A stretch of DNA of 55,949 nt from assembly GCA_043820655.1 (NCBI GenBank), contig JBDRDO010000059.1:1-55949 (forward strand). Reading direction: 5' to 3'. Source of the stretch: Candidatus Iainarchaeum sp. (GTDB taxonomy: Archaea; Iainarchaeota; Iainarchaeia; Iainarchaeales; JAZDEL01). Both the position numbers and the translations under genes were made by a program. The notes below the pieces were generated by a model. The model did not search any database. It was not told the origin of the DNA and saw only the letters and a list, made by a program, of their open reading frames with translations. The first letter of the stretch is position 1. Each line of letters opens with the position of its first letter. This document shows, piece after piece, positions 1,419 to 46,763 of the stretch.

Positions 1419-4400
1419 TCAAACCTGGAACTTTTTCTCATCATCCACCCTTGCCTTTGCGCGGATGAAGTAAACCGCGGAGTAGATCGATACTATCTCA
1501 AGCACCGCGAAAAGGATTGCAAGCGGAAGGTCAACAAACCTGCTTATCAAAAGCGGGGCAACGAGGAAAAGTGCGGCAAGCAGGGCGCGCTTTAGTTTCT
1601 CACGGTTTTCAAGTTTATCAGTGAGGATTTTCTGCGGGAAGAGGATTTTGCTGTTTCTGTATGCAAGTATGCATGCAACTGCTGAAAGTGCAAAAAGCAG
1701 GAGCACAAGGAAGGGCGCCTCTGTAAAGGACGAGCCGAATATCAGCTCGGCTATTCCACCAAGCGTGCCGCCGATACTGCCTGAAAATCCAACCCCCTCA
1801 AAATACCCCTGTTCGGAGTATTTCTTCTTCCTGACACTTACGCCGTAATTGCCCGCCTCACGCACAGTGAATGTTATTTTTGCGCCTTCCGTGCTCAGGA
1901 TTTCAACAGCGCCCGAGGGCGAGGTAATCTGCGCGGAGAAGCCGTGCAGGAGGCCGAGTGTGGGATGATTAATCCCTATGCTCTGCTCCTTTCCTACAGG
2001 CACATTCGGCTCCATAATAATATCAAGAAGGTTGCTTTTCTCATCCACAGGGTCTGTAATGTCATAAAGATATTCCTGCCCGTCGAAGACATTATCCTCA
2101 TCACTATCAAGGCTTAATATATTAGTCCCTATTTCATGGAATTCCAAACCATCGTTTAGCAGGTCGCCGTCGGTGTCAGGCACATAGGGGTCTGAGCCGT
2201 TTCCCCTTTCATCGTCATCTATAAGCCCGTCATCATCGGTGTCATCGGGCTCTGTAACACAGGGCGGCTCATCAACCAGGCCGTCCTGATCATCGTCAAT
2301 TCCGTTTCCGCAGATTTCGTGGCGGGGATAACAAAGCTCGTCAATTTCCCCGTCCAGATCATTGTCTATATTGTCGCCGCAGATTTCCCCGCAGCCCTCA
2401 TCTATCAGCCCGTTTCTGTTGTCGTCAATTCCGTTTCCGCAGATTTCATAAAGTCCGCTGCAATCCTCGTCTATTTCCCCATCGGCATCATTGTCAATGC
2501 CGTCGCCGCAGATTTCCCCGCCGCAGCCCTCATCCACTATTCCGTCAAGGTCATTGTCTATTCCATCACAGCGCTCCTCGCAATCCTCATCCACAAGGCC
2601 GTTTCTGTTGTCGTCAATGTCGTTTCCGCAGGTTTCTCCGCAATTTGACTCGGGGCTTGTCATGCACTGCCACTCCCCGTTTTCGCAGAAGCACCAGTTG
2701 TGCTCGGTGAGGTCGGGGCAGGTGTATTTCCTCACATCCCCGTCATCACATACACCCTTTGGAGGGGGGTTTGAGGGACAACCATCCGCAACTGAAGAGC
2801 AGAGGCCGTTTGTGCATGCCGGCACGGAGAAACAGGACTCGTCACGCGAGGGCATTGCCTTGCAGAATGCATGTGAGCAGTTGAACTGCGTGTTCACATA
2901 ATCAAGCCAGCACTGCACGTAATCCCTGTTTATGGATGTGTTAGTGCCGCTGTGGTTGCAGTCACAGCACTGGTCCTTTATGTTAATGCAATCAGCATCG
3001 GTTTCACATTCAAAGACATTCACAGTTGTTGTGCTTTCGGGGGCACGGCCGTCCTTAAGGAGGAGCTTTATCTGTGAAAGTTCATTACTGAGTTCGGTTA
3101 AGGATGGGGGAAAGCGCAGGTCGCCCCCGTTGGGGCAGGCGGCATAAAAGCCGACCTTCTTTGAAAGGCTGCCTGGCGTGTAGGTGTAGGTTACGGAGCC
3201 TGCATCTGTCGGTGCGCGGGCGCAGTTGTAATAATCCTGGTCAAGGGAAAGGAAGCCGCCTGTTTCAACAAGGGTTTTGAAATCCGCAAGCTGCTTTGCA
3301 CTGAGCTTGCCGTGCTTGTATGACATATTTCCATAAAGATTTTCCTCGTATGCAAGTGTTCCATCGGGATACATGTAAAGGGTTTTGTCGCATCCGTTGA
3401 GGCAAAATCCGTTTCCGTAAAGGTCCTTGAAAAGGGGGGCACCGGGGCTTGAAGAAACTGAACATTCAATCTCGCCGGGAAGGGCACCATCATCAACATG
3501 ATCCCCGCGTTCGTCGGTGCATATAACCGAACAGCCCTCGTCTGTTTTGCCGTCCATGTCATCATCAATAAGGTTTCCGCAGATTTCGGTAAAGCCCTCA
3601 TCTATCACTCCGTCAAGATCATTGTCTATGTCATCACAGCAAATCTCGGGCTCGGGAACAGTGTCACCGATAATAATGCTAAGCGAGCCCCAGTTGTTGA
3701 ACTCGTCAATCTCGTGAATTGATTTTGAATCAGCCATAAACCCAATGCTGACAATTCCGTTATATGCCCCGCCCCCTGAATTCAGCAGAAGGGTAAGCTC
3801 CTGAATGCTGGTTTTGAATGTAAGCCGTGTGCGTTCTCCCGAAGCCAAAAGGGCTATTGTTTTGCTTTCAATTTCAATCCAGCTTAAGGAGGAAGACTCG
3901 GCATCGCCGCGCATTGCAAACAGGGTGTTTTCAAAATTTGCCGCAGACCTTGAGCCGCGGTTTATTAAATCAACCAGCACAACTATCTCATTTCCCGCCC
4001 TGTAACTGCCGTACGAGTATATTGCAAGGTCAACGGCATCTATTTTTTCCGTGCATCCCTCCGTGCAGCAGACAGCCCCTATATGTGTCGCATATGTGTG
4101 GCCCGGGCAGCCCTCATTGCGCCCGCAGGAGTATGTGCAGCTGCTGATTCCGCTTGTGACGGTGCCTGTGTGCGGCGTCCATGGGCAGCCCTCATCAATC
4201 TCGCCGTCCTGGTCATCATCGCGCGAGTTGCATATCTCCGCGGTTGCGCCAAGGAAGCCCACATACGCGGAATAACTGCCGGAGGAAATGTTTCCCGCGA
4301 CAAGTTCGCCTATTGCGATTGCATTCATGTCGTAAGATGCGGAACTGCCGGGCACGCCTCCGGCAAAAACGTCCGCCTCCATTTGATATGATGTGCTTGT

Positions 4401-4481
4401 CATTACCGCGGAATTCGCAAGAACTGCAAGCACAATGAGCATGGGCAAAACCGCTAAATATTTTGTTTTTTTGCCGAACAT
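1419..4481 (-). CDS. large secreted Cys-rich repeat protein (about 1020 aa) with a C-terminal polytopic membrane anchor
   Basis: The track ORF is 1419..4556. Start is preferred at MFGKKTKYLAVLPMLIVLAVLANS (signal peptide, ATG 4481-4479), 7 nt after the upstream gene's stop. It has nine CGxGIDxDxDGxxDExC repeats and acidic DxDxDG (thrombospondin-3-like) repeats. Three hydrophobic segments lie at the C-terminus. Confidence 0.85.
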   Translation of the reverse strand: MFGKKTKYLAVLPMLIVLAVLANSAVMTSTSYQMEADVFAGGVPGSSASYDMNAIAIGELVAGNISSGSYSAYVGFLGATAEICNSRDDDQDGEIDEGCPWTPHTGTVTSGISSCTYSCGRNEGCPGHTYATHIGAVCCTEGCTEKIDAVDLAIYSYGSYRAGNEIVVLVDLINRGSRSAANFENTLFAMRGDAESSSLSWIEIESKTIALLASGERTRLTFKTSIQELTLLLNSGGGAYNGIVSIGFMADSKSIHEIDEFNNWGSLSIIIGDTVPEPEICCDDIDNDLDGVIDEGFTEICGNLIDDDMDGKTDEGCSVICTDERGDHVDDGALPGEIECSVSSSPGAPLFKDLYGNGFCLNGCDKTLYMYPDGTLAYEENLYGNMSYKHGKLSAKQLADFKTLVETGGFLSLDQDYYNCARAPTDAGSVTYTYTPGSLSKKVGFYAACPNGGDLRFPPSLTELSNELSQIKLLLKDGRAPESTTTVNVFECETDADCINIKDQCCDCNHSGTNTSINRDYVQCWLDYVNTQFNCSHAFCKAMPSRDESCFSVPACTNGLCSSVADGCPSNPPPKGVCDDGDVRKYTCPDLTEHNWCFCENGEWQCMTSPESNCGETCGNDIDDNRNGLVDEDCEERCDGIDNDLDGIVDEGCGGEICGDGIDNDADGEIDEDCSGLYEICGNGIDDNRNGLIDEGCGEICGDNIDNDLDGEIDELCYPRHEICGNGIDDDQDGLVDEPPCVTEPDDTDDDGLIDDDERGNGSDPYVPDTDGDLLNDGLEFHEIGTNILSLDSDEDNVFDGQEYLYDITDPVDEKSNLLDIIMEPNVPVGKEQSIGINHPTLGLLHGFSAQITSPSGAVEILSTEGAKITFTVREAGNYGVSVRKKKYSEQGYFEGVGFSGSIGGTLGGIAELIFGSSFTEAPFLVLLLFALSAVACILAYRNSKILFPQKILTDKLENREKLKRALLAALFLVAPLLISRFVDLPLAILFAVLEIVSIYSAVYFIRAKARVDDEKKFQV
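2262..2640 (-). repeat. in-frame tandem array of six Cys-bounded acidic repeats (C-G-[ND]-[GD]-I-D-[ND]-[DN]-x-[DN]-G-x-[IV]-D-E-x-C)
   Basis: Read directly: ETCGNDIDDNRNGLVDEDC, CDGIDNDLDGIVDEGC, CGDGIDNDADGEIDEDC, CGNGIDDNRNGLIDEGC, CGDNIDNDLDGEIDELC, CGNGIDDDQDGLVDEPPC. Three further dispersed copies lie near 3530-3660 and 4190-4240. Confidence 0.9.
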
Positions 4482-4488
4482 GGTTTTG

Positions 4489-5559
4489 TCATCTCCCTGT
4501 GTACTCCAAATGATAGTGGACCTCATATCCATAAAAGTAGACCTCATGCGCGTCAAGGTCTGAAATTGTGATTGTGATCATGAAAAGATGCGGCTTGTTG
4601 TTCATTTTATAGGGCAGGCCGGTTGTGTTTGAGGAGTTCATTTCAAATTCGGTACCGCTTGTCTGGTTTGTTGTGTAATTCGCCTCAACAGTTACCGCCT
4701 GCGTGTTCGGGTCAACGCTGACTATATTTGCATCATCAACATAGAATGTTGCGCCGACATTGTAATCGTAAACAGTTATGCGGTCTATTACAGGCGTTGC
4801 GCCGAACTCAACAACATGCATCGGCAGCCCAACCTGGAGTATTCCTCCCGCTGTTCTGGAAACCCCGAACTGGTAAACATTGTCCCCGCGGTAAGTGGTG
4901 AATTCCGTTACGTTGGAGGCTGCATCGACAAAAAGGCTGAATGCGCCCTGCGTGCCCGGGTCGGGCATTACAATTTCCGTTCCGCTCTGCAGGATGAGGT
5001 TTCCTGAAAGATTAATGTCGCCTGCCGTTGGAGTTGAGGCATTGCCAGTTACTATTGTGTTTGAGACGTTCATGTCGTTGAAGTTTGCCCCTCCCAAAAG
5101 CACGACTTGTTTATCTGTTGAGATTGTAAGGTCATTGTCGGCATCGCTGTCGGAGATGCACGAGGTGCAGTTAACATCTTCCGCGGTTTTTGAGGTGTAA
5201 CAGCCGGGCAATGGGGTTAACCTGCTGCGCGGAGCCATCTCCCCGTCGTTTTCTATGTTCACGCCGAGCCAGTACTGGTCAAGGAAGTTGAAGTCTGTTA
5301 GTGCTGTGATTTCACCGAGGGTTGTGCTGAAGTAGCCGTTTGAAACGCCGACTTCATTCGCGCCCTGGTGGATTTCATTCCAGATTGCCGTGCCTCCCGT
5401 GGAAACGTTGTAAAGCGCAAAGTGCATGTTGTAATCTCCGTCGGAGTATGTGCCGGATGAGGAAAGCCTGCCCTGCACATTCATCTGGTTTACGTATGCT
5501 GTTATGGGGAGGGCCAGAAGAACAACTGCGAAAAGCGCCAGTGCAAGTTTCAGTTTCAT
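4489..5559 (-). CDS. secreted paralog 3 of a triplicated ~360-aa family
   Basis: Signal peptide MKLKLALALFAVVLLALPITAYV. Shares with its two neighbours the VQG..L....Y.M.F.IY....G...Y.E.H.GAN...V.NG.F...LG.I(T)AL...F...YW.G(I/V)......EM.PR N-domain, a DVNC[ST]xC hinge, a GD(I/V/M)N(L/V/I)SG motif and a C-terminal (R/E)(L/V).Y(H/Y) ending. Confidence 0.85.
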   Translation of the reverse strand: MKLKLALALFAVVLLALPITAYVNQMNVQGRLSSSGTYSDGDYNMHFALYNVSTGGTAIWNEIHQGANEVGVSNGYFSTTLGEITALTDFNFLDQYWLGVNIENDGEMAPRSRLTPLPGCYTSKTAEDVNCTSCISDSDADNDLTISTDKQVVLLGGANFNDMNVSNTIVTGNASTPTAGDINLSGNLILQSGTEIVMPDPGTQGAFSLFVDAASNVTEFTTYRGDNVYQFGVSRTAGGILQVGLPMHVVEFGATPVIDRITVYDYNVGATFYVDDANIVSVDPNTQAVTVEANYTTNQTSGTEFEMNSSNTTGLPYKMNNKPHLFMITITISDLDAHEVYFYGYEVHYHLEYTGR

Positions 5560-5563
5560 TTCA

Positions 5564-6649
5564 TCACTCCAAATGGTAATCCAGCCTGAAGCCGTATATG
5601 TTTACCGGCACAGGCGATGCGTCGGACTGGACATAAACGGTAATCATGTATGGCTTGCTTGAGACAAGGGTGTATGGAAGGTCCGAAGTGTCGGAGCTTG
5701 TAAGGGTTTTGCTTGTGCCGCTTGTTATGTTTGTTGTGTACGTGACAACAGGCGAGGTGCGGCGCGCGGCGCCCATGTTAATTTCCTCAATGTAGATGTC
5801 ATCAAGGTAGTTTGTTCCGTTCACGCCGTTATATTTGAGTATTATTGCGTCAAGCACCGCTGTTGAGCCGAACATGCCCTGCGGAATCGGGAAGGCAAAT
5901 GATACATTTGCGTCCGCGGTAACCTCAACCGATGTTTCAAATGCCTGTACACCGAGCGCGCCTGCAGTATTGTTCATTGATTCCGGCGCCGAAACCCAGA
6001 AGTGCATCGGGGAATCAAGTGCGCCAGAGTCGCGCGCCTGCATAATCTTTGAACCGCCGCTTAAGTGTACGTATTCCGAAATATTCATGTCTCCCAAAGC
6101 GCCTGGCATTGCACCGCCAACGGAAATAGTGTTGCCTGCGTTGAGGTCGTACACATTTATTTTTCCCGAGAGATTGACATCGTTTGATGTTATGAGTGAG
6201 ATGTTATTGTCTATTTCAGAGTCTGTTGCGCAATTTGAGCAGTTTACATCAAGCGCGATTTTGCCGGACATTGCGTATGGCTGGGGAATGAAAGGCTGCC
6301 TCGGGGACATCTCGCTGTCACTGCCGACAGTAATTCCGAGCCAGTAGTTTTGCAAGTAATTCAGGTCAAGGGCGGTTATGCTGCCGAGCTCGGCACTGTA
6401 AAAGCCGTTCTTTACGGTTACTGTATTTGCGCCTGTGTGGGATTCCGTGTAAATTGGCGTTGCGCCTGTTGGGCTGTCGTAGATTTTGAAAACCATATCA
6501 TAAGTTCCGGAAAGGTAGGATGCACCTGCACTGTCTGTTAACTTGCCCTGCACAGTGAGGTAATCAATGTACGCGTTTGCAGGCGCGCCCGCAAGGATTA
6601 AAAGGAAAAGTAAAACAAGGATTTTTTTTGCAATACCCATAATCATCAT
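5564..6649 (-). CDS. secreted paralog 2 of the triplicated family
   Basis: Signal peptide KKILVLLFLLILAGAPANA and the same conserved blocks as 4489..5559. The start overlaps the upstream stop by 4 nt (ATGA). Confidence 0.85.
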   Translation of the reverse strand: MMIMGIAKKILVLLFLLILAGAPANAYIDYLTVQGKLTDSAGASYLSGTYDMVFKIYDSPTGATPIYTESHTGANTVTVKNGFYSAELGSITALDLNYLQNYWLGITVGSDSEMSPRQPFIPQPYAMSGKIALDVNCSNCATDSEIDNNISLITSNDVNLSGKINVYDLNAGNTISVGGAMPGALGDMNISEYVHLSGGSKIMQARDSGALDSPMHFWVSAPESMNNTAGALGVQAFETSVEVTADANVSFAFPIPQGMFGSTAVLDAIILKYNGVNGTNYLDDIYIEEINMGAARRTSPVVTYTTNITSGTSKTLTSSDTSDLPYTLVSSKPYMITVYVQSDASPVPVNIYGFRLDYHLE

Positions 6650-7725
6650 CCCATGTAATATTCCAGCCTTATGAAGTGCAGGTCAATCTGGTCCCCGCTC
6701 TGCACATTGAGGTCTATGTTCAGGGAATACGGGGCATCCTGCATTGTGTAGGGCATGCCCGCCATGTTTGTGCTGTTCAGGTCAATGTAAGTGCCGGAGG
6801 TTATGTTTGTTGCATAAGTGAGGCGCGGTGTTGTGCCGTTTACATCACTGCCCATATTGTTCTGCACAAGGGCTATGTTGTCTACATGTGTTCCGCCCGT
6901 GTTTACGCCGCTGTAATAAACGCCTATTTCAGAAAGGAACATGCTTGAATTGAATTTTTCCGAGAAATTCGGCATCTTCAGCTTCAGCGTGCAGTTTGCG
7001 GTGCAGTATGCCGAGTTTGCGGTGTAGCCATCCCCGATTTTGTTTGTGTCCGAAGTTATGTACTCGGCCGCGCTTACCCAGTATACAAATGGCGTGCCGG
7101 GCATTATCAGTTTTTTATCGGGCGCAATCTCAATGTTTCCGCTGACATTTACATCTCCCGCTATGGATGGCTGGTTTGCGGTTCCGACTGCAAGCGTTGT
7201 TGTGTTTAGATTGTAAATATCTGCCGTGCCTGTTACATTGAAATCACTGGCAGTTACTATTGTGAGCCCGTTGTCAAGGTCATTGTCATTTACGCAGTTT
7301 GTGCAGTTCAGGTCGTATGACGTTGCGGGGGATGAGCAGTAAGGTGCGGAGCGTATCGGCAGGCGCGGAATCATTTCACTGTCAGTGCCGATAGTAATGC
7401 CGACAAAATACTGCGAGGGCCGGAATTCCGAGGAGCGGAAGTTAAGGTCAAGTATTGTGAGCATGCCTATATTTGTGTCAAACCAGCCACGGGTGAATGG
7501 GATTGTGTTTGCGCCTGAATGGGTTTCGGAATAAACCTCGCCGCCGCCGCTTTGCTGAGGATATATTTTGAATGTCATGTTATGCGGGACGGTTATGTAT
7601 TGGCTGTCGGTGTCAAGTGCCAGCCCCTGCACGCGGATGTATTTTGGAATAAGGGCGCTTATTGATACTGTAAGCAGGATAAGCGCAAGTGCGAGGAAAA
7701 TTAAGCGTGGTTTCATGTTATTCAC
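6646..7725 (-). CDS. secreted paralog 1 of the triplicated family (first gene of the minus-strand operon)
   Basis: Signal peptide MKPRLIFLALALILLTVSISA and the same conserved blocks. An AT-rich TATA region lies directly upstream. Confidence 0.85.
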   Translation of the reverse strand: MNNMKPRLIFLALALILLTVSISALIPKYIRVQGLALDTDSQYITVPHNMTFKIYPQQSGGGEVYSETHSGANTIPFTRGWFDTNIGMLTILDLNFRSSEFRPSQYFVGITIGTDSEMIPRLPIRSAPYCSSPATSYDLNCTNCVNDNDLDNGLTIVTASDFNVTGTADIYNLNTTTLAVGTANQPSIAGDVNVSGNIEIAPDKKLIMPGTPFVYWVSAAEYITSDTNKIGDGYTANSAYCTANCTLKLKMPNFSEKFNSSMFLSEIGVYYSGVNTGGTHVDNIALVQNNMGSDVNGTTPRLTYATNITSGTYIDLNSTNMAGMPYTMQDAPYSLNIDLNVQSGDQIDLHFIRLEYYMG

Positions 7726-7862
7726 TTAATATATATCTTTTATATATAAAATTGTTCCGCAGGGCATTAGGGAGGGACCCTGGCGCGGCAGGGGGTGCGC
7801 GGGAAAAATCGGAAAATAAGAAAACAGCAAGAATTAAATACAACTTAATGCAATAATAAGGC
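7726..7862. promoter_or_regulatory. divergent promoter region between the two surface-protein operons
   Basis: 137-bp AT-rich spacer containing ttaatatatatcttttatatataaaatt (TATA-like on both strands), located between divergently oriented starts at 7725 and 7863. Confidence 0.45.
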
Positions 7863-8321
7863 ATGCAGAAAAGTTCCAAAGGGCAGGGTGCGCTGGAATA
7901 TCTTCTCCTAATAGGCGGCGCGGTGCTTGTTGCGGTTGTTATAATTGTGCTAATTATCAATATGGTGCCCACAACGGGGGATGAGATAAACGAAACTATT
8001 GATGCGGGGCAGAGTGAGATTGACCAGGCATATCAGGATGCGCTGGCTAATGGCGGGGGCGGGTCAACAAGCACAGTTACGATTATCAACGGTGTGGTAA
8101 GCGGCGGGGATTACAGCGGCTGCGCGATTCCTCCGACACCACTGCCTTCGGACTGGTGCGACGGCAAGACCACCGGTTACTACACTTGCCCACCGGGAGA
8201 ATACTGCAAAGAAGATTGCAGTTGCGCCCCCGAACCACTCGGCGTGTTGGGTACGCCCGGTGACGAGGATGAGGCAGTAACAACCAACATGCCCGCGATT
8301 TCTTTTCCTAACGAGAGTTAG
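7863..8321 (+). CDS. archaeal type IV pilin-like protein with a class III signal peptide
   Basis: N-terminus MQKSSKGQG/ALEYLLLIGGAVLVAVVIIVLII. This is a short basic leader, then Gly, then a hydrophobic helix with a QGALEYLLL motif typical of prepilin-peptidase substrates. The C-terminal domain is Cys-rich. Confidence 0.75.
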   Translation: MQKSSKGQGALEYLLLIGGAVLVAVVIIVLIINMVPTTGDEINETIDAGQSEIDQAYQDALANGGGGSTSTVTIINGVVSGGDYSGCAIPPTPLPSDWCDGKTTGYYTCPPGEYCKEDCSCAPEPLGVLGTPGDEDEAVTTNMPAISFPNES

Positions 8322-8408
8322 ATACAGCCGCCCCAATATTACTCATACCATTCAGCGGGCGCGAAAGCAATCGAAACCGTTAAATACAAGAAAGGGCATT
8401 TAATTACC

Positions 8409-8633
8409 ATGAATATAGGCAAATGCGATTCGAAATGCCTAATGGTAATAGGCGTAATTGTGATTCTGGTTGTGCTGGCGTTTGTTTTTCTCGGCCAGCC
8501 CGGAGGGCAGGCAGGAGGGCAGGGAACAACTACCGTAGATAGCCGGGACCCATTCGCCGTAGGCGGGGGTTCTGAAACTGCGGACGGCTCTTTGGCGCCC
8601 GACTTCTGCGCCGGCGGCGGGGAGTCCTGCTGA
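8409..8633 (+). CDS. small single-pass membrane protein, Gly-rich and Cys-containing tail
   Basis: 74-aa ORF with a TM segment (LMVIGVIVILVVLAFVFL), co-directional between the pilin-like gene and the 699-aa gene. No clear SD. Confidence 0.35.
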   Translation: MNIGKCDSKCLMVIGVIVILVVLAFVFLGQPGGQAGGQGTTTVDSRDPFAVGGGSETADGSLAPDFCAGGGESC

Positions 8634-8667
8634 GGAGTAAAAAATAAAAAAAAGCGAGGTGTGATGG

Positions 8668-10767
8668 ATGGAAAAGAAAATGGTTTTGATTCTAATTGCG
8701 CTGCTTCTTGTGCCGGCAATGGCGCTTGCTGAGCAGTGCGCACTATACAAAGGAAAGGGGGCTTCAACCACGTACGATTTGCTTACGTATGCGGGGCTTG
8801 AGAACGCCCCTGAAAGGATTGATGCATATGCAAGTACGCCGCTTTACACTATTGTCTTTGCGGGGGACACCGTATATGCATACGACAAGTCAACTAACGA
8901 GTGGGACTCGGGAAAGATTTCAGATTATTTCCCGGTAAGCAGGGTTGATGCCGCGATGTACAGCGGCAAGGACGTTGGAACAATAGTTTCCGGGAGATAC
9001 TATTATTACGTGACCGGGCCTTTATGGGAAGGCAAAGGCGCAGAGAGGCTTGGGCACAGCTGGAAAGGGCCCGTTGAACTGAAGAGGGTGGCGATGAACT
9101 ACTGGAAACCCAGGCTGCTGAGCGGCCAGGCGGAGAGTGTTGCGCCATACCCTGTTGCGCCCCAGCTTGCCGCGGCATTCAAGGACCACAGCGGCGTTGA
9201 GCAGCTCTTCATTGCGGATAATGCCCCTGTGAACGGCGTGCGCGGCATAAGGCAGTGGTGGACCGCGGGGCCGAGGGCAAATGTCTGGTTCTATGGGTTC
9301 ATGCCCTACAGGGGAATCGGCGGGGATATAGTGAATATGTCTTCCATTGATGCGATAGAACAGATAGGCAATGTATGGCTGATATTCGGGGAGGGGGACT
9401 GCATGCCCAATGTCAGGAGCGATGAAACCGTTATTGACGTGCTTGAGCATGTCATAGAGGTGCCTTACGAGAAGATACCTGCGGTGGTGAAGAACAGTAA
9501 CGACAAATACTGCGAGCAGGACACGGACTGCAAAAGCATGAACGGCTGCTTTGCAGGGTGCTGGAACGCGCACTTCAAGCCCATCATCAAGAGCGGCAGC
9601 ATATGCCCGACAATGAAGGGACCTGCAAGCTGCGCATGCGTTGAGAACACGTGCATGGCCGGCAAGCCTGGAGACATAACCGACGACCCGGGAACCATAA
9701 CTCCGGGTGTTGAACTGCCCGCATGTGAGGTGCAGTTCACGGACGCGGGATTCCACGGCACGAACAAGACTGTAACTGTAAAGGTGCAGGGAAAGGCTGC
9801 CACAATCAGCAAGGCAATATCAGGATACTACAACTTCGGAACAAGTGACCCGGAAACATGCGATGTATCGGGCAACACGGCATATTGCCCGTGCACGCAG
9901 AACACGAACGACATACGCTACGTGTCCGCGACACTCAAAACAGAAACTGTCAACGGTATAATATATGCGGTTGATGCAGCGGGCAATAAGGTTTGCAGGG
10001 CTGAGAGGGACCCGAAGTACGGCGTTGCAACATACACCTTCCTTGCGGAGGACGGCCTCAAGCGCTGCAACCCCGAGCAGGTTATGGCGGATCGTGTAAC
10101 AGTGAACACTGTGAACGCGAAATTCCATAAGTTAGTTGCGAACTATGTGCTGCAGGGCATTGACCTGACAAACATCGGCACAGAGGCAGCCACGGTCAGG
10201 GACATCAGCGTCCTTTATCCCGAGGTGCTGATAAAGCCCACTGAAGTAAACATGAAATGCAGCGACGGCAGCGAAAAATACTGCAGCTTCAGGCAGCCAG
10301 CGGTAACCGCAACGCCGATGCCGATGGTGGAGCAGTACGCGCTGACGGCAAAGGTCATGGCAGACCCTGCGCAGGCATATGAGATTCCGACGGGAAAGGT
10401 AAGGCCTTTGGAAGTGGCATGGGACCCGAACGCACAGGTTGCGGGAATGCTACACGACATCTCAGTGGTAATCGACTTCATTGACGGCTCATCGCTGGCA
10501 GTGCCGATACCCGATGTTATGGCGGAGGGCTGCACAGACAGCGACGGAGGCAGGGACCTGTTCGAGAAGGGCTATGCAACTGGCAAAAACCCAGCAAGGC
10601 CCACAGAGACAATCTCCGGAGAGGACTACTGCATAACCTCCAGCAATAAGCCGAATACTGCGGTGATGGAATACACATGCAATGGCGAATACCTAGAGAG
10701 CAATGCAATAGCATGCCCCACAAGTAGTACGGGCTGGTGCTCGAACGGCAAATGCACAGAAAAATAA
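8668..10767 (+). CDS. secreted Cys-rich protein (699 aa)
   Basis: GAGGTG lies 7 nt upstream of the ATG. Signal peptide MEKKMVLILIALLLVPAMALA. Many Cys residues. The C-terminal module is CTDSDGGRDLFEKGY...GEDYC...VMEYTCNG...CSNGKC. Confidence 0.8.
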   Translation: MEKKMVLILIALLLVPAMALAEQCALYKGKGASTTYDLLTYAGLENAPERIDAYASTPLYTIVFAGDTVYAYDKSTNEWDSGKISDYFPVSRVDAAMYSGKDVGTIVSGRYYYYVTGPLWEGKGAERLGHSWKGPVELKRVAMNYWKPRLLSGQAESVAPYPVAPQLAAAFKDHSGVEQLFIADNAPVNGVRGIRQWWTAGPRANVWFYGFMPYRGIGGDIVNMSSIDAIEQIGNVWLIFGEGDCMPNVRSDETVIDVLEHVIEVPYEKIPAVVKNSNDKYCEQDTDCKSMNGCFAGCWNAHFKPIIKSGSICPTMKGPASCACVENTCMAGKPGDITDDPGTITPGVELPACEVQFTDAGFHGTNKTVTVKVQGKAATISKAISGYYNFGTSDPETCDVSGNTAYCPCTQNTNDIRYVSATLKTETVNGIIYAVDAAGNKVCRAERDPKYGVATYTFLAEDGLKRCNPEQVMADRVTVNTVNAKFHKLVANYVLQGIDLTNIGTEAATVRDISVLYPEVLIKPTEVNMKCSDGSEKYCSFRQPAVTATPMPMVEQYALTAKVMADPAQAYEIPTGKVRPLEVAWDPNAQVAGMLHDISVVIDFIDGSSLAVPIPDVMAEGCTDSDGGRDLFEKGYATGKNPARPTETISGEDYCITSSNKPNTAVMEYTCNGEYLESNAIACPTSSTGWCSNGKCTEK

Positions 10768-10778
10768 GTTAAGAAAGA

Positions 10779-10811
10779 GGGGCCTTGAAAAAGGCCCCGC
10801 CTCGCTTTTTT
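10779..10811 (+). terminator. stem-loop plus T-run terminator after the 699-aa gene
   Basis: ggggcctt-gaaa-aaggcccc (8-bp stem, GAAA loop) followed by gcctcgctttttt. Confidence 0.55.
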
Positions 10812-18907: not shown

Positions 18908-19768
18908 GTGCTTGATTTGGAACTGCTGCTTATACGGGGGGCTGCGGTGCTTATTGCCGCGGCGATTTCCGCATACACTGATTACAAAACAGGGCTTATT
19001 CCCGATAAGATAACGTATTCATTGATTGCACTTGGCGCGGTTCTGCTTATTTTTGATTTTAATTTTCAGGCAGTGCTTATTTCAGGCGCGGTGTTTGCGA
19101 TAGGATATGTCTTTTATTATGCGGGGAAGTTTGGCGGCGGGGATGTGAAGCTGTTCACCGGAATTGCACTGGTGCTGCCTGTGCTTGGCGGGCAGGTGTT
19201 TGTGATTACGGTTTTATTTGCGGCATCTGCATTTGCCGCGGTCTGGATGGGGGCATATTATGCAATAAAATATTTCAGAGGAGGGGGAGGCTTTAACGAG
19301 AACCGCAAAAGGATAATTCTTGCCTGCGCACTTGGGATTGTTGTGTCCGCACTGCTTGCGCTTTCCGCTTGGGGCGGGAGAATTTCACTGTTTGCAGCAA
19401 TGGCAATGGGCGTGCCTTTGCTTTTTGCATTGCTGTTTGTTGCGCTTGAGCGCGGGATAAGGAGGACGTGCTTCCTTGAGCGCGTTAATATTGGGGCGCT
19501 TGATGAGGATGATATAATTGCGATTGAATTTATGGGTGAGGGGCAGGCGGAAAAACTTGGCACAATGTTCAGGGCAGGACTTAAGGGAATAATTGATGAA
19601 AAGGCAAAGCGCGGGCTTGAGAAACTTGGAATTAAGGAGGTGCCTGTGTACAGGAATCTGCCGAGGTTCGGGCCGTTCATACTTGCGGGAGTTATTATTG
19701 CACTGCTTATGCCTGATCTGCTTTTCCTCATAGTTCCTGTCGGGGGCACAGCATATGCACTCGGCTGA
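18908..19768 (+). CDS. A24-family prepilin/preflagellin peptidase (PibD/FlaK/EppA-like)
   Basis: Polytopic. Two catalytic Asp contexts: AYTDYKTGLIPD and GKFGGGDVKLF. GTG start 1 nt after the SRP54 stop. Confidence 0.8.
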   Translation: MLDLELLLIRGAAVLIAAAISAYTDYKTGLIPDKITYSLIALGAVLLIFDFNFQAVLISGAVFAIGYVFYYAGKFGGGDVKLFTGIALVLPVLGGQVFVITVLFAASAFAAVWMGAYYAIKYFRGGGGFNENRKRIILACALGIVVSALLALSAWGGRISLFAAMAMGVPLLFALLFVALERGIRRTCFLERVNIGALDEDDIIAIEFMGEGQAEKLGTMFRAGLKGIIDEKAKRGLEKLGIKEVPVYRNLPRFGPFILAGVIIALLMPDLLFLIVPVGGTAYALG

Positions 19769-31349: not shown

Positions 31350-32489
31350 TTATGCGCCGCATGCCCCCGCGCCTGAAGACACCCCGTCAGCATAGCCGAA
31401 GCCAGATGATGGACCTTCAGAAGATAGTGTTGCAGCACAATCCTCTGGCGATTCGTTGAACGCCTCGCAGATTATGCTAAGCAAATTAGCTGGCGACCTT
31501 GCTCCCGCATTTGGAATTGAAACAGTAGTTCCATTCACAACAAGTGTCGGCGATCCGCCAACACCATAGAGTTCGTTCAGCGCCTTGTCGATGTTGAAGA
31601 GCGGGTAATTGCCACTCAGGTAGCTTGTTGTATCTGCAAGGTTTGCTGAAACACTGAACTCCGTGTCCGCTGCAGCAGTGCATATTGCAAGTGCCGCAGT
31701 GTCAATGCCTGCCTGTGCAAGGCAGGTTTCGGAGTCGCCTGCATCAAGGAAGCATTTAAGGTATGGTAGATAGAGTTCGTTCTGCCCCTTCTGGATGCAG
31801 TACTGGTTCAACTGCTCATTAACCTCTGTTGCGCCGTGCATTGCATAGTACACAAAGCGGATGTTGAAATTTATCTTATCTCCGAGCAATTCAGCAACAG
31901 GGATTATGCCCTTCTCTACCTGCGTGCCAAATGGGCAGTGGCTCATAACAAAGAGGTCAACTTCCGGCACTGCGGACTTCTGCACCTCAACTGTGTCCGT
32001 GCCTGCGTCAGGCTGTTCCGGCGTTTCTGTTCCGGGAAGCGGCTCATTCATGTTTAAAGGAGCGCCTGAAAGCAGGAATACGCCGTCCTTTGTTATGTAA
32101 GTCTCTATTGTTGCCGCGACTTCCCCTGCCTCAATTATGTCAATTTCCGCAACATAGAAAGAGCCGTCAGAGCTCTTTATCCTTGTATCTACTGAAATGC
32201 CGGGCCCAAAAAATACCTCGGCATTGTTGTTCAGGTACGTTTTCAGCTTTGCCGCAACCTCCCCCTGTGTCGGCATGCCTGCCGTGTTCTGCCCTGAATT
32301 CGTCACAAACCCGGTTGGCTGTGCGGGATTCAGCAGAAATGTGCCCGCAATTGCCCCCACAAGCAGCGCAATAATCGCTGTTACAAGCAGTATGCTAAGC
32401 GAAAATGTTTTTGCGCCCTCTGCATGTGCGGAGGATGCCTGTCCCGCAGTTTCACGAACTGTGGAAGATCCGTTTGTTTCCTCATCCAT
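31350..32489 (-). CDS. membrane-anchored thioredoxin-fold (DsbA-like) protein
   Basis: N-terminal TM (FSLSILLVTAIIALLVGAIAGTFLL), an extracytoplasmic domain, then a DsbA-like module with SHCPFG and GSPTLVVNG. Confidence 0.65.
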   Translation of the reverse strand: MDEETNGSSTVRETAGQASSAHAEGAKTFSLSILLVTAIIALLVGAIAGTFLLNPAQPTGFVTNSGQNTAGMPTQGEVAAKLKTYLNNNAEVFFGPGISVDTRIKSSDGSFYVAEIDIIEAGEVAATIETYITKDGVFLLSGAPLNMNEPLPGTETPEQPDAGTDTVEVQKSAVPEVDLFVMSHCPFGTQVEKGIIPVAELLGDKINFNIRFVYYAMHGATEVNEQLNQYCIQKGQNELYLPYLKCFLDAGDSETCLAQAGIDTAALAICTAAADTEFSVSANLADTTSYLSGNYPLFNIDKALNELYGVGGSPTLVVNGTTVSIPNAGARSPANLLSIICEAFNESPEDCAATLSSEGPSSGFGYADGVSSGAGACGA

Positions 32490-34829: not shown

Positions 34830-37800
34830 ATGGAAAGCAAAAAAAATGAAATTGCATCTATACGCAAAAGGGACGGCAGAATCGTGCCTTTTGACGGGGA
34901 AAAGATAGCCCATGCTATTTTCAAGTCCGCGCAGGCAGTGGGGGGAAGCGATAAGGCAACTGCGGAGGCGCTTGCGGGAAAGGTTTTTGAGGCACTTGGA
35001 AAGAGGTTCAAGGCGGATGAAATACCGAGTGTTGAGCAGATACAGGACCTTGTTGAAAAGGTGCTTATTGAGGAGGGGCATGCAAAAACAGCGAAGGCCT
35101 ACATCATCTACAGGCAGCAGCACAAGAAAATCAGGGAAATAGAGAGCACGCTTATAGATGTTCAGAAAACAATTGATGAGTATCTGCAGCAGAGCGACTG
35201 GAGGGTTAATGAAAACAGCAATGAGGCGTATTCATTCAGCGGCCTGCTTCTGCACACCGCGGGAAAGGTCATTGCAAATTACGCGCTGACTGAAATTTAT
35301 CCCCCCGATATTGCGGATGCGCACAAGAAGGGGTATATGCATGTGCATGACCTGAGCCACGGGTTTATCGGCTACTGCGCGGGCTGGAGTTTGGAAACAC
35401 TGCTTGAGCGCGGGTTTGGGGGGGTCGCAAATAAGGTGGATGCAAAGCCGGCAAAGCACATGGATGTTGTTGTGCACCAGATGGTGAATTATATCGGGTG
35501 TTTGCAGATGGAGTTTGCTGGTGCGCAGGCGTTCAGCAGCGTGGACACTTTGCTTGCGCCGTTTGTAAAGGCTGACAATCTTAGCTATAAGCAGGTTAAG
35601 CAGGATATGCAGAAACTTATATTCTCATTGAATATACCCTCAAGGTGGGGCTGCCTCAGCGAGGACACAGAAATACTGGCTGAGGGAGGCTGGAGGAAGG
35701 GCACGGAACTTGAGCGCGGAGATGTAATTGCCACGTTCAACACAAAAACAGAGGAGATAGAATATCTGCCCGTTATAAAGATGACAAAGGACCATTACAA
35801 GGGCAGGATGAAAAGGCTGCGCAACAGGATTACCGACCAGCTTGTGACTCCGAATCATCGCATTCTCAGGAGAATACACAATTACAAAGAAGGCGTTTCA
35901 AAATCAAAATATGTATTTGAGGAGGCAGCGGAACTGAAAACAGGCATCCCGCTGATACCGCTTGGCGGTTTTTTTCGGGGCACTGAAAACGGCGCTGTTC
36001 TTAACCACGACACTGTGAATCTGCTTTCATGGATTGTTTCTGAGGGCACGCTGTGCGAGGGTGAAAGAATAGGCATACATCAATCCGCGGAAATGAATCC
36101 GCAGAACTGTGAAGATATACGGGGCACACTTACAAGGCTTGAAATCCCGTTTGACGAGGCGATGAAGGTTTCCGGTTACACAGGAAAAAGGAACTGTTTA
36201 AGGTTCAGAATTAACCGGCCTGAATCAAGGAACATCTGCACTGAGTTCTTTCCGAGATATGAGAAAAAAATTCCTGAGCAAATGAGAGATGCCCCTGCAG
36301 AAAGTATAAGGCTTTTCTTGGAAACGTATATGAAAGCAGATGGCTGGGCGCCTGAAAACAAAATTTACACAAAGAAAGGGGATGATGCGGATGTTTTTCA
36401 GGAACTGGCGGTAAAGGCGGGCTGGGGCAGCACCTGCTACAAAAACAGGAACGGTATTTTTGTTGTTAGGGTAATAAAGCACGATTATACACAAATAACA
36501 GCAATAGAGGATGTTGAGTATGACGGACTGGTTTGGTGCCCTACAACGGAAAACGGCACGGTTATAGCCAGGAGAAAGGGAAAGGTTTTCATAAGCGGGA
36601 ACTCACAGTATCCTTTTTCGAATCTAACTTTCGACTGGGTTGTGCCTGATGACATGAAAGATAAGAAGGCGCTTGTTGGCGGGGTTAAGCAGGAATTCAC
36701 TTACGGGGATTGCCAGAAGGAAATGGACACGGTAAACAAGGCGTTCCTTGAGATAATGAATGGGGGAGATGCGAACGGCAGGGTTTTCACATTCCCGATC
36801 CCGACATATAATATCACAAAGGACTTTGACTGGGACAGCGAGAATGCTGATTTGCTTTTCGAGGTTACGGCAAAATATGGATTGCCCTACTTCCAGAATT
36901 ATGTCGGAAGTAATTTAGATCCGGGAAGCATACGGGCAATGTGCTGCAGGCTGAACATGGACACAAGCCAGCTTATGAACAGGCCGGGAAGCATGTGGGG
37001 GCCGGGCGACAGCACGGGAAGTATTGGTGTTGTCACAATAAACCTGAACAGGCTTGCATATGAGGCAAAGACAAAGGACGAGTTCATGGACAAGGTTGCG
37101 CACTACATGAACCTTGCACACCAGTCGCTTGAGATAAAGCGCGTAATAATAAACAAGAATTTGAAGAACGGGCTTATGCCCTACACAAAGGCATATCTCG
37201 GAACGTTCAGGAACCACTTTTCAACAATAGGGCTTGTCGGAATGAACGAGGCGTGCAAGAACATGCTTGGGGAGAGCATCAAAAGTGAGGCAGGGAAGCA
37301 GTTTGCAATAGAGACACTGCAGTTCATGCGTGAAAGGTGCCTGCAGTTCCAAAAGAACAGCGGAAACCTATATAATCTTGAGGCAACGCCAGCGGAATCC
37401 GCATCATTCAGGCTTGCGAAGCTTGACAAGGAGATGTACCCGGATATAATAACTGCAGGGACCGATGTGCCGTACCTCACAAACTCAACGCACTTGGGGG
37501 TTGGGGAGACGGATGATGCTGTTGAGGCAATAGAGCACCAGAACGACATTCAGCCGCTTTACACAGGGGGAACAATGTTCCACACATTTTTAGGGGAGAA
37601 TGTTTCAAGCGGCGCTGCGTGTAAAAAACTTGTGCGAAGGATTGCGGAAAACACAAGGCTGCCATACTACAGCATAACCCCTACATTCAGTGTCTGTCCC
37701 GATCACGGGTATATTGCGGGGAAGCATTTTACCTGCCCCGCATGCAGTGACAACGCGGAAGGGGTGAAGGAAAATAATGCAGGCAGTGTGGAAACTGCGG

Positions 37801-44896: not shown

Positions 44897-44911
44897 GGAA
44901 TCACGGCAGGA

Positions 44912-45604: not shown

Positions 45605-45605
45605 T

Positions 45606-46742: not shown

Positions 46743-46763
46743 AAATATTCATTGGGCTGGGGG

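What the first reader, a model, noticed from the sequence alone, without database searches (positions are those of the whole stretch)
1419..10767. Divergent 9.3-kb island of exclusively secreted, Cys-rich, repeat-rich proteins: candidate uncharacterised archaeal surface or attachment module
Seven consecutive genes flank one AT-rich divergent promoter (7726-7862), and none shows an enzymatic motif. The minus-strand operon is tightly packed, with a 4-nt overlap and then 4-nt and 7-nt gaps. It encodes three ~360-aa paralogs with Sec signal peptides. Downstream of them lies a 1020-aa protein that carries nine Cys-bounded acidic repeats and a three-TM C-terminal anchor. The plus-strand arm encodes a pilin-like protein with a class III signal peptide, a 74-aa single-pass protein and a 699-aa Cys-rich secreted protein. 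The same window also holds an A24 prepilin peptidase (18908-19768) and a membrane-anchored DsbA-like oxidoreductase (31350-32489). These could mature the pilin-like and disulfide-rich components. The arrangement (paralogous subunits, an anchored Ca-binding-type scaffold and a pilin-like subunit) looks like a dedicated extracellular structure rather than scattered surface proteins. I could not match it to any named system.
Basis: partly seen in the sequence, partly recalled or inferred. Interest (0 to 1): 0.75.

Follow-up and report, generated by a model that had tools for sequence, protein, structure and literature searches.

The report
Archaeal fibre-plus-anchor surface gene cluster
A tiny symbiotic-type (DPANN) archaeon carries a conserved operon of three tail-fibre-like surface proteins and a membrane-anchored stalk protein, which probably form an adhesion fibre, and the recurring fibre/anchor gene pairing suggests what this very large fibre family docks onto.

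Summary
The seven genes are real and laid out as described. The window is a whole contig of a Candidatus Diapherotrites/Iainarchaeum (DPANN) MAG.

**The three paralogs.** The ~360-aa paralogs are not orphans. Residues ~27-126 are the N-terminal base domain of the mosaic-adhesive-trimer (MAT) chimeric-fibre superfamily, which resembles phage tail fibres. This domain matches 32,492 representative proteins. Of 60 top relatives, 54 hit NCBIfam Bdello_MAT_N, and their tips are S74, YadA, C1q and collar domains. The full-length architecture occurs in only three related genomes, with 1:1:1 orthology and the same gene order.

**The 1020-aa protein.** It is a C-terminally membrane-anchored stalk with CARDB, DUF6438, nine MopE-like acidic disulfide repeats and TSP3. 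It has a conserved 55-aa N-terminal 'SxxY x3' module that weakly resembles the N-terminus of the CPR pilus protein PamT. The same module heads the gene beside MAT-like fibre genes in at least three other DPANN loci. This points to a fibre-plus-anchor pair.

**Best reading.** The operon encodes a surface adhesion fibre displayed on an anchored stalk.

**Plus-strand arm.** The pilin, the 74-aa protein and the 699-aa protein are linked to the operon only by adjacency.

The DsbA claim is unsupported.

**Verdict.** New variant of a known kind; interest about 0.6.

The parts
1419..4481 (-). Gene A: 1020-aa secreted stalk/anchor protein, membrane-anchored at its C-terminus. Order of elements: signal peptide, SxxY x3 module, Cys knot, CARDB, DUF6438, Cys-rich region, nine MopE-like acidic disulfide repeats, TSP3-like repeats, beta domain, three TM helices.
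   Evidence: The ortholog hits CARDB at 2e-13, Cu-binding_MopE at 38 bits (cut-off 27), acid_disulf_rpt at 51 bits (cut-off 41), DUF6438 at 5e-6 and TSP3_bac at 2.8e-3.
4242..4409 (-). N-terminal 'SxxY x3' module of A (residues 25-80), the proposed docking module for the fibres.
   Evidence: It is nearly invariant in three orthologs. It hits NCBIfam CPR_pilus_PamT positions 28-81 even without the signal peptide, at E 7e-4 to 1e-5, far below the family cut-off. It recurs in L008 424 aa, L013 622 aa, L005 503 aa and L006 1396 aa, each next to a fibre gene.
2259..2630 (-). Block of six consecutive acidic Cys-bounded repeats in A (residues 618-741), of the form CGxGIDxDxDGxIDExC. Inferred to bind Ca2+ or another metal and to be disulfide-stabilised.
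   Evidence: Regex; Pfam PF11617 and NCBIfam NF033662.
1458..1745 (-). C-terminal membrane anchor of A (residues 913-1008, about three TM helices), with positively charged loops and tail.
   Evidence: Hydropathy; conserved in the ortholog.
4489..5559 (-). Gene B: 356-aa MAT-like short fibre or spike protein. Signal peptide, N-terminal base domain, short stalk, beta-sandwich head.
   Evidence: It has 2.8 sequons per 100 aa.
5564..6649 (-). Gene C: 361-aa MAT-like short fibre or spike protein.
6272..6571 (-). MAT-type N-terminal base domain of C (residues ~27-126). The equivalent domain is present in B and D.
   Evidence: The profile matches 32,492 representative proteins over profile positions ~15-140. 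Of 60 relatives, 54 hit Bdello_MAT_N. AF2 pLDDT is 67-87 in this region.
6646..7725 (-). Gene D: 356/359-aa MAT-like short fibre or spike protein. The likely start is ATG 7716.
7726..7862 (.). Divergent intergenic region of 137 nt at 39% GC. It holds TATA-like boxes at 7743-7750 (minus strand, about 26 nt before ATG 7716) and at 7834-7840 (plus strand, about 26 nt before ATG 7863).
   Evidence: Sequence read directly. The promoter role is inferred from the archaeal TATA consensus position.
7863..8321 (+). Gene E: 152-aa type-IV-pilin-like protein with a class III signal peptide (KG/QGALEYLLLIGG) and a Cys-containing C-terminal part.
   Evidence: Pfam PF04021 at 27.5 bits, above the 23.7 cut-off. 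The leader is invariant in orthologs. It is the only such leader in the window.
8409..8633 (+). Gene F: 74-aa single-pass membrane protein with a Gly-rich tail. It is always paired with a G-family gene.
   Evidence: The F+G unit is duplicated in the relatives.
8668..10767 (+). Gene G: 699-aa secreted, Cys-rich (24 Cys), all-beta protein of unknown fold. Homologs occur only in the same clade.
   Evidence: No Pfam, NCBIfam or PDB hit. The AF2 model failed at pLDDT 36.6.
10779..10811 (+). Terminator-like GC hairpin (GGGGCC...GGCCCC) followed by a T6 run, downstream of G.
   Evidence: Sequence read directly.
18908..19768 (+). Peptidase_A24 prepilin peptidase. It is a candidate processing enzyme for E and lies outside the island.
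   Evidence: Pfam E 3.8e-12.

Best explanation
The minus-strand operon D-C-B-A encodes a two-part cell-surface adhesion apparatus of a DPANN (Iainarchaeia) archaeon.

**Proposed parts.**
- B, C and D are Sec-secreted, heavily N-glycosylated short fibre or spike proteins of the MAT chimeric-fibre superfamily, which resembles phage tail fibres.
- Each has a conserved ~100-aa N-terminal base domain, a short stalk and a divergent beta-sandwich (jelly-roll-like) head.
- A is a long, disulfide-rich and probably Ca2+-stiffened stalk. It is held in the membrane by three C-terminal helices.

**Proposed mechanism.**
- The distal N-terminal SxxY x3 module of A docks the base domains of the fibres, possibly by beta-strand complementation.
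- The fibre trimers are thereby held away from the cell with their heads outward, where they can bind a host cell or a surface.
- The trimers may be three homotrimers or one B:C:D heterotrimer.

**Shown.**
- Gene structure and the homology of the N-terminal base domain.
- The domain content of A.
- Conserved order and 1:1:1 orthology across three genomes.
- The recurrent fibre/anchor gene pairing.

**Inferred.**
- Trimerisation, docking between A and the fibres, and the adhesive function.

**Plus-strand genes.** E (pilin-like), F and G are surface proteins of unknown role. Their membership in the same apparatus is unproven.
For: **Base-domain homology of B, C and D.**
- B and C hit NCBIfam Bdello_MAT_N directly after the signal peptide.
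- The B/C/D profile matches 32,492 representative proteins through this domain only.
- Of 60 top relatives, 54 hit Bdello_MAT_N, best E 8e-14.
- The relatives' C-terminal parts are classic trimeric tip domains: Peptidase_S74, YadA_head, C1q, Collar, BclA_C, Fibrinogen_C and Gp10_C.
- The published MAT fibres have the same layout, and their N-domain is proposed to bind an unidentified surface element.

**Fibre-like shape and surface exposure.**
- Identity among paralogs falls from base 44% to stalk 37% to head 27%.
- The AF2 model shows a beta N-domain, a beta-sandwich head and a low-confidence middle.
- Foldseek hits are enriched in phage tail-fibre, tailspike, CBM and jelly-roll proteins.
- Sequon density is 2.2-3.1 per 100 aa, against 0.31 in cytoplasmic proteins of the window.

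**Operon and conservation.**
- The operon is tightly packed.
- Order and 1:1:1 orthology are conserved in three genomes.

**Anchor pairing in other loci.**
- An HMM built only from A orthologs finds a single outside hit among 2,652 ORFs. It is the gene immediately downstream of fibre P0021 in L008 (E 1.8e-4).
- BLASTP of A against that protein gives 1e-6 over the module plus the Cys knot.
- L013 has the same module two genes downstream of fibre P0028 (E 2.7e-14).
- L005 503 aa lies downstream of fibre P0020 and is homologous to the L008 protein (2e-57).
- These partners have Ig-like/CarboxypepD_reg domains and a TM anchor.
Against: - No direct evidence exists for trimerisation, for an A-fibre contact or for adhesion. 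Multimer modelling was not available.
- The NCBIfam MAT_N scores for B and C (17 and 22.5 bits) are below the 60-bit cut-off, and D gives no hit.
- The AF2 model is only moderate (pLDDT 61) and the Foldseek TM-scores are low (about 0.2).
- The fibre/anchor pairing is not universal. P0022 in L006, P0025 in L009 and P0036 in L014 show no such neighbour. In L005 and L006 the module is seen by eye and is not significant by HMM.
- The island proteins are as conserved as the flanking ribosomal and translation proteins (56-61% vs 44-69%). That is unusual for host-recognition adhesins and fits a structural envelope role equally well.
- Synteny extends into the housekeeping flanks, so conserved order is weak evidence of coupling.
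Confidence: 0.5

Rival explanations
1. B, C and D are the structural envelope (S-layer-type) glycoproteins of this archaeon, and A is their membrane stalk. This would be analogous to SlaA/SlaB of Sulfolobales. On this reading the operon builds the cell coat, not an adhesin.
For: - The island proteins diverge no faster than the neighbouring housekeeping proteins.
- Sequon density is very high.
- The genes are co-operonic with a membrane-anchored stalk.
- They sit among ribosomal and translation genes.
- The B/C/D profile gives a weak, non-significant match to a PDB chain named 'S-layer' (8q1o_A, E 0.11).
Against: - The base domain belongs to a superfamily whose relatives carry adhesin or fibre tips, not lattice domains.
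- The proteins are small, at about 360 aa.
- Other DPANN genomes carry the same base domain on 400-2000-aa proteins scattered as single genes.
- The PDB hit is not significant.
Confidence: 0.2
2. The seven genes are independent surface proteins that merely sit together. There is no common structure, and the conserved order reflects the close relatedness of the three genomes.
For: - Synteny also covers the housekeeping flanks: Rpr2 on one side and S19e, L31e, eIF6, prefoldin and FtsY on the other.
- The E/F/G arm does not accompany fibre+anchor pairs elsewhere.
- The number of F+G units varies between genomes.
Against: - D-C-B-A has a 4-nt overlap and 4/7-nt gaps.
- Three paralogs are retained 1:1:1.
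- The fibre/anchor pairing recurs in unrelated genomic contexts.
Confidence: 0.15
3. The island is an accessory locus of a type IV filament. E is a pilin processed by the A24 peptidase. B/C/D, G or both are adhesins carried on or beside that pilus.
For: - E has a class III signal peptide above the Pfam cut-off.
- An A24 peptidase lies 10.6 kb away.
- In L006 a MAT-like fibre and its SxxY partner lie next to T2SSF/T2SSE genes.
- The MAT paper raises a possible interplay with type IV pili.
Against: - No ATPase or platform gene is in the island or the 56-kb window.
- B, C, D, A and G have Sec-type leaders, not class III leaders.
- The pilin is absent from the other fibre+anchor loci.
Confidence: 0.1
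4. The operon builds a donor-strand-exchange pilus related to the CPR Pam pilus. The PamT-like module of A would act as donor-strand acceptor or terminator.
For: - The N-terminal module of A and of its analogues hits NCBIfam CPR_pilus_PamT positions ~10-81, at E 1e-5 to 6e-8.
- A resembles PamR in layout: an N-terminal beta element, beta-sandwich domains and a C-terminal TM anchor.
Against: - Scores are 19-32 bits against a 240-bit cut-off and cover 70 of 241 positions.
- No PamA/B-like pilins and no PapD-like chaperones were detected.
- The Pam pilins are reported as CPR-exclusive.
Confidence: 0.05

Closest known systems
Mosaic adhesive trimer (MAT) chimeric fibre proteins of Bdellovibrio bacteriovorus (Caulton et al. 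2024, PMC10769870; NCBIfam NF053851 Bdello_MAT_N), together with the wider family of S74-, YadA- or C1q-tipped 'tail fibre domain' proteins
   Same: - A Sec signal peptide is followed directly by a conserved beta-rich N-terminal domain of ~100-130 aa.
- The stalk and the C-terminal tip are variable.
- The relatives of the B/C/D base domain hit Bdello_MAT_N in 54 of 60 cases and carry trimeric tip domains.
   Different: - The host is an archaeon (DPANN).
- The proteins are very short (356-361 aa, against the ~920-1,150 aa of the Bdellovibrio MATs whose construct numbering was read), with no S74 domain and no long fibre shaft.
- Scores are below the NCBIfam cut-off.
- Three paralogs are fixed in one operon together with a membrane-anchored partner. 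In Bdellovibrio the docking partner is unknown.
CPR Pam pilus components PamT and PamR (bioRxiv 10.64898/2026.03.03.709456; NCBIfam NF058579)
   Same: - The 55-aa N-terminal SxxY x3 module of A and its analogues resembles the N-terminal part of PamT in sequence.
- A shares the PamR logic: an N-terminal beta element, beta-sandwich domains and a C-terminal TM anchor that tethers a filament.
   Different: - Only 70 of 241 profile positions match, at about 10% of the cut-off score.
- No Pam pilins or chaperones are present.
- The partners here are MAT-like fibres, not donor-strand pilins.
Archaeal type IV filament (TFF) systems with class III signal peptide pilins and PibD/EppA-type A24 peptidases
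   Same: E has a bona fide class III leader, and an A24 peptidase is encoded in the window.
   Different: No secretion ATPase or platform protein is in the island or the window. The other six proteins do not have class III leaders.
Sulfolobales S-layer pair SlaA/SlaB (an outer glycoprotein canopy on a membrane-anchored stalk). This comparison rests on my own knowledge.
   Same: A glycosylated outer component is encoded beside a stalk protein that is membrane-anchored at its C-terminus.
   Different: No sequence or fold similarity was detected. The outer components here belong to a fibre-adhesin superfamily.

Membership tests
MAT / chimeric trimeric fibre superfamily | A conserved beta-rich N-terminal domain of ~100-130 aa immediately after a Sec signal peptide | tested here: met
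   The B/C/D profile matches 32,492 representatives over positions ~15-140. Of 60 relatives, 54 hit Bdello_MAT_N. The domain starts 1-3 residues after the predicted A-x-A cleavage site.
MAT / chimeric trimeric fibre superfamily | Score above the NCBIfam NF053851 (Bdello_MAT_N) cut-off of 60 bits | tested here: not met
   B scores 17 bits, C scores 22.5 bits and D has no hit. The model is a Bdellovibrio subfamily model. The proteins therefore belong to the superfamily but not to the Bdellovibrio subfamily.
MAT / chimeric trimeric fibre superfamily | A variable, swappable C-terminal tip on a conserved base | tested here: met
   Paralog identity is 44% in the base, 37% in the stalk and 27% in the head. 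The relatives carry S74, YadA, C1q, Collar, BclA_C and other tips.
MAT / chimeric trimeric fibre superfamily | Trimeric fibre assembly and surface display | not testable with these tools
   Only a monomer AF2 model was possible (pLDDT 61, with the middle region below 50).
Type IV filament (TFF) system | A pilin with a class III signal peptide | tested here: met
   E hits PF04021 at 27.5 bits, above the 23.7-bit cut-off.
Type IV filament (TFF) system | A class III signal peptidase (Peptidase_A24) | tested here: met
   ORF 18908-19768 hits at E 3.8e-12. It lies outside the island.
Type IV filament (TFF) system | A secretion ATPase (T2SSE) and a platform protein (T2SSF) in the locus | tested here: not met
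   None was found among the 37 largest ORFs of the window scanned with Pfam.
CPR Pam pilus (PamT) | A full-length match to NF058579 (241 positions, cut-off 240 bits) | tested here: not met
   Scores are 19-32 bits and cover positions ~10-81 only.
CPR Pam pilus | PamA/B-type pilins and PapD-like membrane-anchored chaperones in the operon | tested here: not met
   No such NCBIfam or Pfam hits were found for any island protein.
MopE-like / acidic double-disulfide repeat proteins | Tandem CxxxDxDxDGxxDExC repeats | tested here: met
   A has nine copies. The ortholog scores 38 bits for PF11617 (cut-off 27) and 51.4 bits for NF033662 (cut-off 41). A itself scores below both cut-offs.
DsbA/thioredoxin-fold oxidoreductase (31350-32489) | A thioredoxin-family profile hit and a CxxC active site | tested here: not met
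   There is no Pfam hit at E<=1e-3, and the motif is HCPFG.

The most novel reading that the evidence does not exclude
The SxxY x3 N-terminal module, shared by A, its DPANN analogues and CPR PamT, would be the long-sought cell-surface docking partner of the MAT-type fibre base domain.

On this reading, a membrane-anchored stalk in this archaeon presents a B:C:D heterotrimeric fibre through beta-strand complementation. The result would be a previously unrecognised two-component surface organelle common to ultrasmall symbiotic archaea, with a mechanistic link to CPR bacteria. It would also offer a general rule for how tens of thousands of MAT-like fibres are attached to cells.
Probability: 0.2. 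Interest if true: 0.8.

Novelty: new variant of a known kind. Interest (0 to 1): 0.6.

Why it matters
DPANN archaea are thought to live attached to host cells, but the molecules that mediate contact are largely unknown.

- **A candidate adhesion apparatus.** This locus assigns an Iainarchaeial candidate adhesion apparatus to a recognisable protein superfamily, the MAT fibres that resemble phage tail fibres. That superfamily has been characterised only in a predatory bacterium.
- **A very large, poorly curated domain family.** The base domain has more than 30,000 representative members. None of the B/C/D proteins or 60 relatives scanned against Pfam matched any Pfam family over this domain, and the only NCBIfam model that matched it is a Bdellovibrio subfamily model.
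- **A testable answer to an open question.** The MAT paper left open what the fibre base binds. The recurrent gene pair 'fibre followed by an anchored protein with an SxxY x3 N-terminus' gives a concrete hypothesis.
- **A possible DPANN-CPR link.** The pairing hints at shared surface-assembly logic between DPANN archaea and CPR bacteria.

Tried and rejected
**Searches and models that gave nothing usable.**
1. PDB sequence searches with single proteins and with profiles for A, B/C/D and G found nothing significant.
2. The AF2 model of G from a 3-sequence alignment failed (pLDDT 36.6), so no fold search was run on it.
3. By eye, G residues ~50-250 look hemopexin- or propeller-like, with repeated (I/V)DA motifs. 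Pfam gives no hit even on the fragment. This is left as an impression only.
4. The search for related loci with the 7-sequence B/C/D alignment failed for lack of a conserved stretch. With the C orthologs it recovered only the already known Iainarchaeum MAG.
5. The metagenome scan with the A alignment returned only a spurious MopE-repeat match.
6. Rfam and tRNA scans of the window found nothing.

**Ideas tested and dropped.**

7. Mobile-element or viral origin is rejected. GC content matches the rest of the contig. The island occupies the same Rpr2...S19e slot in a relative. Its divergence equals that of the housekeeping neighbours.
8. No homology was found between the window's 379-aa 'DsbA-like' protein and the 380-aa thioredoxin-like protein next to fibres in L006.
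9. An HMM search for the SxxY module in L005 and L006 partners was not significant. Those two rest on visual alignment and on the homology of L005 to L008.
10. A literature search found no paper that links MAT-type fibres to archaea or DPANN.

Full report
**1. The observation**

The ORF map reproduces the seven genes:
- A is 1419-4481(-), 1020 aa from the ATG 'MFGKK'.
- B is 4489-5559(-), 356 aa.
- C is 5564-6649(-), 361 aa.
- D is 6646-7725(-), 359 aa from GTG. The public annotation uses ATG 7716, giving 356 aa.
- E is 7863-8321(+), 152 aa.
- F is 8409-8633(+), 74 aa.
- G is 8668-10767(+), 699 aa.

The D-E spacer is 137 nt at 39% GC, against about 50% elsewhere. Every product starts with a hydrophobic segment.

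A has 49 Cys and nine acidic Cys-bounded repeats. Its hydrophobic segments at residues 913-944 and 962-1008 fit three TM helices, with positive charges in the predicted cytoplasmic loop and tail.

Two descriptors fail:
- B, C and D have only 2-5 Cys each. They carry 8-11 N-x-S/T sequons (2.2-3.1 per 100 aa), against 0.31 in 14 cytoplasmic proteins of the window.
- The 'DsbA-like' protein at 31350-32489 has no Pfam hit and shows HCPFG rather than CxxC.

The A24 peptidase at 18908-19768 is confirmed.

The spacer has TATA-like boxes about 26 nt upstream of ATG 7716 (minus strand, 7743-7750) and of ATG 7863 (plus strand, 7834-7840). From the known archaeal promoter geometry this suggests divergent, leaderless transcripts. 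That is an inference. A GC hairpin plus T6 run follows G at 10779-10811.

**2. Source and conservation**

The window is an entire 55,949-bp contig of a MAG labelled Candidatus Diapherotrites archaeon (locus tags ABH854_*). Homologs of the full-length paralogs exist in only three further sources:
- near-identical Micrarchaeota-labelled contigs;
- the Iainarchaeum MAG GCA_043808785.1;
- one Logan contig.

A HMMER scan of 1.84 billion representatives found just three full-length representatives. The GTDB-species scan and the JGI metagenome scan added nothing.

In the relatives the arrangement is the same:
- A pilin gene lies divergent from three paralogs and a ~1018-aa protein, followed by Rpr2.
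- On the other side lie the 74-aa and ~650-aa genes, followed by S19e, L31e, eIF6 and so on.
- The F+G unit is present twice in both relatives, as two subfamilies about 30% identical. The window has it once.

Orthology among the paralogs is strictly 1:1:1 by position, at 57-59% to the window and 82-84% between the two relatives. Paralogs are 33-39% identical. The triplication is therefore old and all three copies are retained.

One caveat applies. The housekeeping flanks are collinear too and equally diverged: 44-69% identity, against 56-61% for A, B, C, D and G. Conserved order is thus weak evidence for functional coupling. It does show that these surface proteins are under purifying selection as strong as that on ribosomal proteins.

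**3. What B, C and D are**

Pfam is silent. NCBIfam gives sub-threshold hits of B and C residues ~12-92 to Bdello_MAT_N.

The profile search settles the matter. Profile positions ~15-140 match 32,492 representative proteins at E<=1e-3 and 14,032 at E<=1e-10. These proteins range from 134 to 2,974 aa.

Of 60 top relatives, 54 hit Bdello_MAT_N (best E 8e-14). Their remaining parts carry Peptidase_S74, YadA_head, C1q, phage Collar, BclA_C, fibrillar-collagen C-terminal, Fibrinogen_C, Gp10_C and beta-helix domains. These are the repertoire of trimeric fibre and adhesin tips.

The published MAT fibres of Bdellovibrio have the same layout. A signal peptide is followed by an invariant beta-rich domain of ~130 aa and then a trimeric fibre with a swappable tip. 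The base is 'presumably' bound to an unidentified surface element.

The nearest base-domain relatives of B/C/D are themselves DPANN proteins from Micrarchaeota and Diapherotrites MAGs. An Aenigmarchaeota hit lies slightly further down the list. The domain is therefore established in these archaea and is not a recent bacterial import.

Within B/C/D, identity among paralogs falls from base (44%) through stalk (37%) to head (27%).

The AF2 model of C has these features (pLDDT 61):
- a confident beta N-domain (pLDDT 67-87);
- a poorly predicted middle region, as expected for a segment that folds only in an oligomer;
- a beta-sandwich head (pLDDT 55-79).

Foldseek finds only weak, partial matches with TM about 0.2. 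They are dominated by CBM4 and jelly-roll folds, phage tailspike C-termini, tail fibres, S74 proteins and collagen-like proteins.

I conclude with high confidence that B, C and D are short members of the MAT-like chimeric-fibre superfamily. I conclude with moderate confidence that they are trimeric, glycosylated surface spikes.

**4. What A is**

The domain order of A follows:
- signal peptide;
- conserved 55-aa module (STSYQMEADVFAGG..SSASYDMNAIAIGE..SSGSYSAYVGFLG);
- Cys knot;
- CARDB (2e-13 in the ortholog);
- two acidic repeats;
- DUF6438;
- Cys-rich region;
- six acidic repeats (MopE-like and acid_disulf_rpt, both above cut-off in the ortholog);
- TSP3-like repeats;
- a beta domain;
- three TM helices.

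With the N-terminus outside and the C-terminus in the membrane, the conserved module is the distal tip of a long stalk. That stalk is probably Ca2+- and disulfide-stiffened.

**5. The key extra finding**

The N-terminal module hits NCBIfam CPR_pilus_PamT positions ~28-81 even without the signal peptide, at 19-25 bits. This is far below the 240-bit cut-off.

More telling is where else the module occurs:
- **L008.** An HMM built only from the three A orthologs, searched against all 2,652 ORFs of the window and fetched loci, found one outside hit. It is the 424-aa gene immediately downstream of the MAT-like fibre P0021 in L008 (E 1.8e-4). BLASTP of A against that protein gives 1e-6 over the module plus a shared C..C..CPG..CC..C knot. 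The protein also hits PamT (6.3e-8).
- **L013.** In a second Diapherotrites MAG, a 622-aa protein two genes downstream of fibre P0028 has the module (HMM 2.7e-14, PamT 2.4e-7).
- **L005.** In a Micrarchaeota contig, the 503-aa gene after fibre P0020 is homologous to the L008 protein (2e-57). It shows a degenerate module.
- **L006.** The 1396-aa gene after a 277-aa fibre shows the pattern by eye only.

The L008, L005 and L013 partners end in Ig-like/CarboxypepD_reg domains plus a TM helix and a basic tail. The L006 1396-aa protein shows no obvious C-terminal TM segment. Six sequences align over the module, with S5, Y8, Y26, G39, S43, Y46, G51 and F52 invariant.

The pairing is not universal. 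P0022, P0025 and P0036 lack such a partner.

The recurrent pair in different genomic contexts is the best evidence that A and the fibres work together. It suggests that the module is what the fibre base binds. The PamR anchor of CPR Pam pili has an N-terminal strand inserted into the last pilin and a C-terminal TM helix. That is an analogy for the mechanism and does not show membership.

**6. The plus-strand arm**

- **E.** It has a class III signal peptide above the Pfam cut-off, with an invariant leader in its orthologs. It is the only such protein in the window. No TFF ATPase or platform gene is in the window.
- **F.** It is a conserved single-pass protein that always precedes a G-family gene.
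- **G.** It has homologs only in this clade and no family or PDB hit. Its AF2 model is unusable.

None of E, F or G accompanies the fibre+anchor pairs in the other loci. Their role in the same structure remains open.

**7. Verdict**

The minus-strand operon is best explained as a fibre-on-stalk adhesion apparatus (confidence about 0.5). The rivals are:
- an S-layer-type envelope role (0.2);
- mere adjacency (0.15);
- a type-IV-pilus accessory role (0.1);
- a Pam-like donor-strand pilus (0.05).

It is a new variant of a known kind: MAT-like chimeric fibres, here archaeal, miniaturised, triplicated and coupled to an anchor. The interest lies in the testable hypothesis for the docking partner of a very large fibre family, and in a concrete candidate for DPANN host or surface attachment.

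Noticed in passing
window 41846-43762 (+): A 638-aa full-length long RelA/SpoT homolog (HD_4 + RelA_SpoT + TGS + ACT_4) in a DPANN archaeon. As far as I know, long RSH enzymes are unusual in Archaea.
   Followed up: no
window 34830-37901 (+): An anaerobic ribonucleotide reductase NrdD with an ATP-cone is 1023 aa long, and its Pfam NRDD match is split into two stretches. It may carry an insertion or an intein.
   Followed up: no
window 55128-55868 (-): A free-standing protein with a LAGLIDADG_3 homing-endonuclease-like domain lies near the contig end.
   Followed up: no
window 43763-47993 (-): A MacB-type ABC exporter (two FtsX/MacB_PCD permeases and an ABC ATPase) lies next to a 409-aa CARDB protein with a C-terminal TM helix. 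This is another surface-protein module in the same contig.
   Followed up: partly
window 49903-52098 (-): A 731-aa Big_7 Ig-domain surface protein with a C-terminal TM helix and a KRRR tail lies adjacent to a polyprenyl synthetase. It has no SxxY x3 module. In L005 a polyprenyl synthetase also lies near the fibre/anchor pair.
   Followed up: partly
window 31350-32489 (-): The alleged DsbA-like protein has an N-terminal TM helix and an HCPFG motif with a single Cys instead of CxxC. It has no Pfam hit and is not homologous to the 380-aa thioredoxin-like protein found beside fibres in L006, L011 and L012.
   Followed up: yes
L003 2611-4775 and L002 255-2353: The relatives carry a second, divergent copy of the small-TM plus large-Cys-rich gene pair (F2+G2, about 30% identical to F+G) that the window lacks. 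F2 lacks the C-terminal Cys pair of F.
   Followed up: partly
L006 13096-21260: In another Diapherotrites MAG, a 277-aa MAT-like fibre and a 1396-aa protein with OmpL47-barrel and Big_3_3 domains and an SxxY-like N-terminus lie directly beside two T2SSF genes and a T2SSE gene. This hints at a link between such fibres and a type IV filament system.
   Followed up: partly
P0025 (L009 5008-8742): A 1244-aa Diapherotrites protein matched the B/C/D profile in 7 separate stretches. It may contain tandem copies of the base domain. This was not examined.
   Followed up: no
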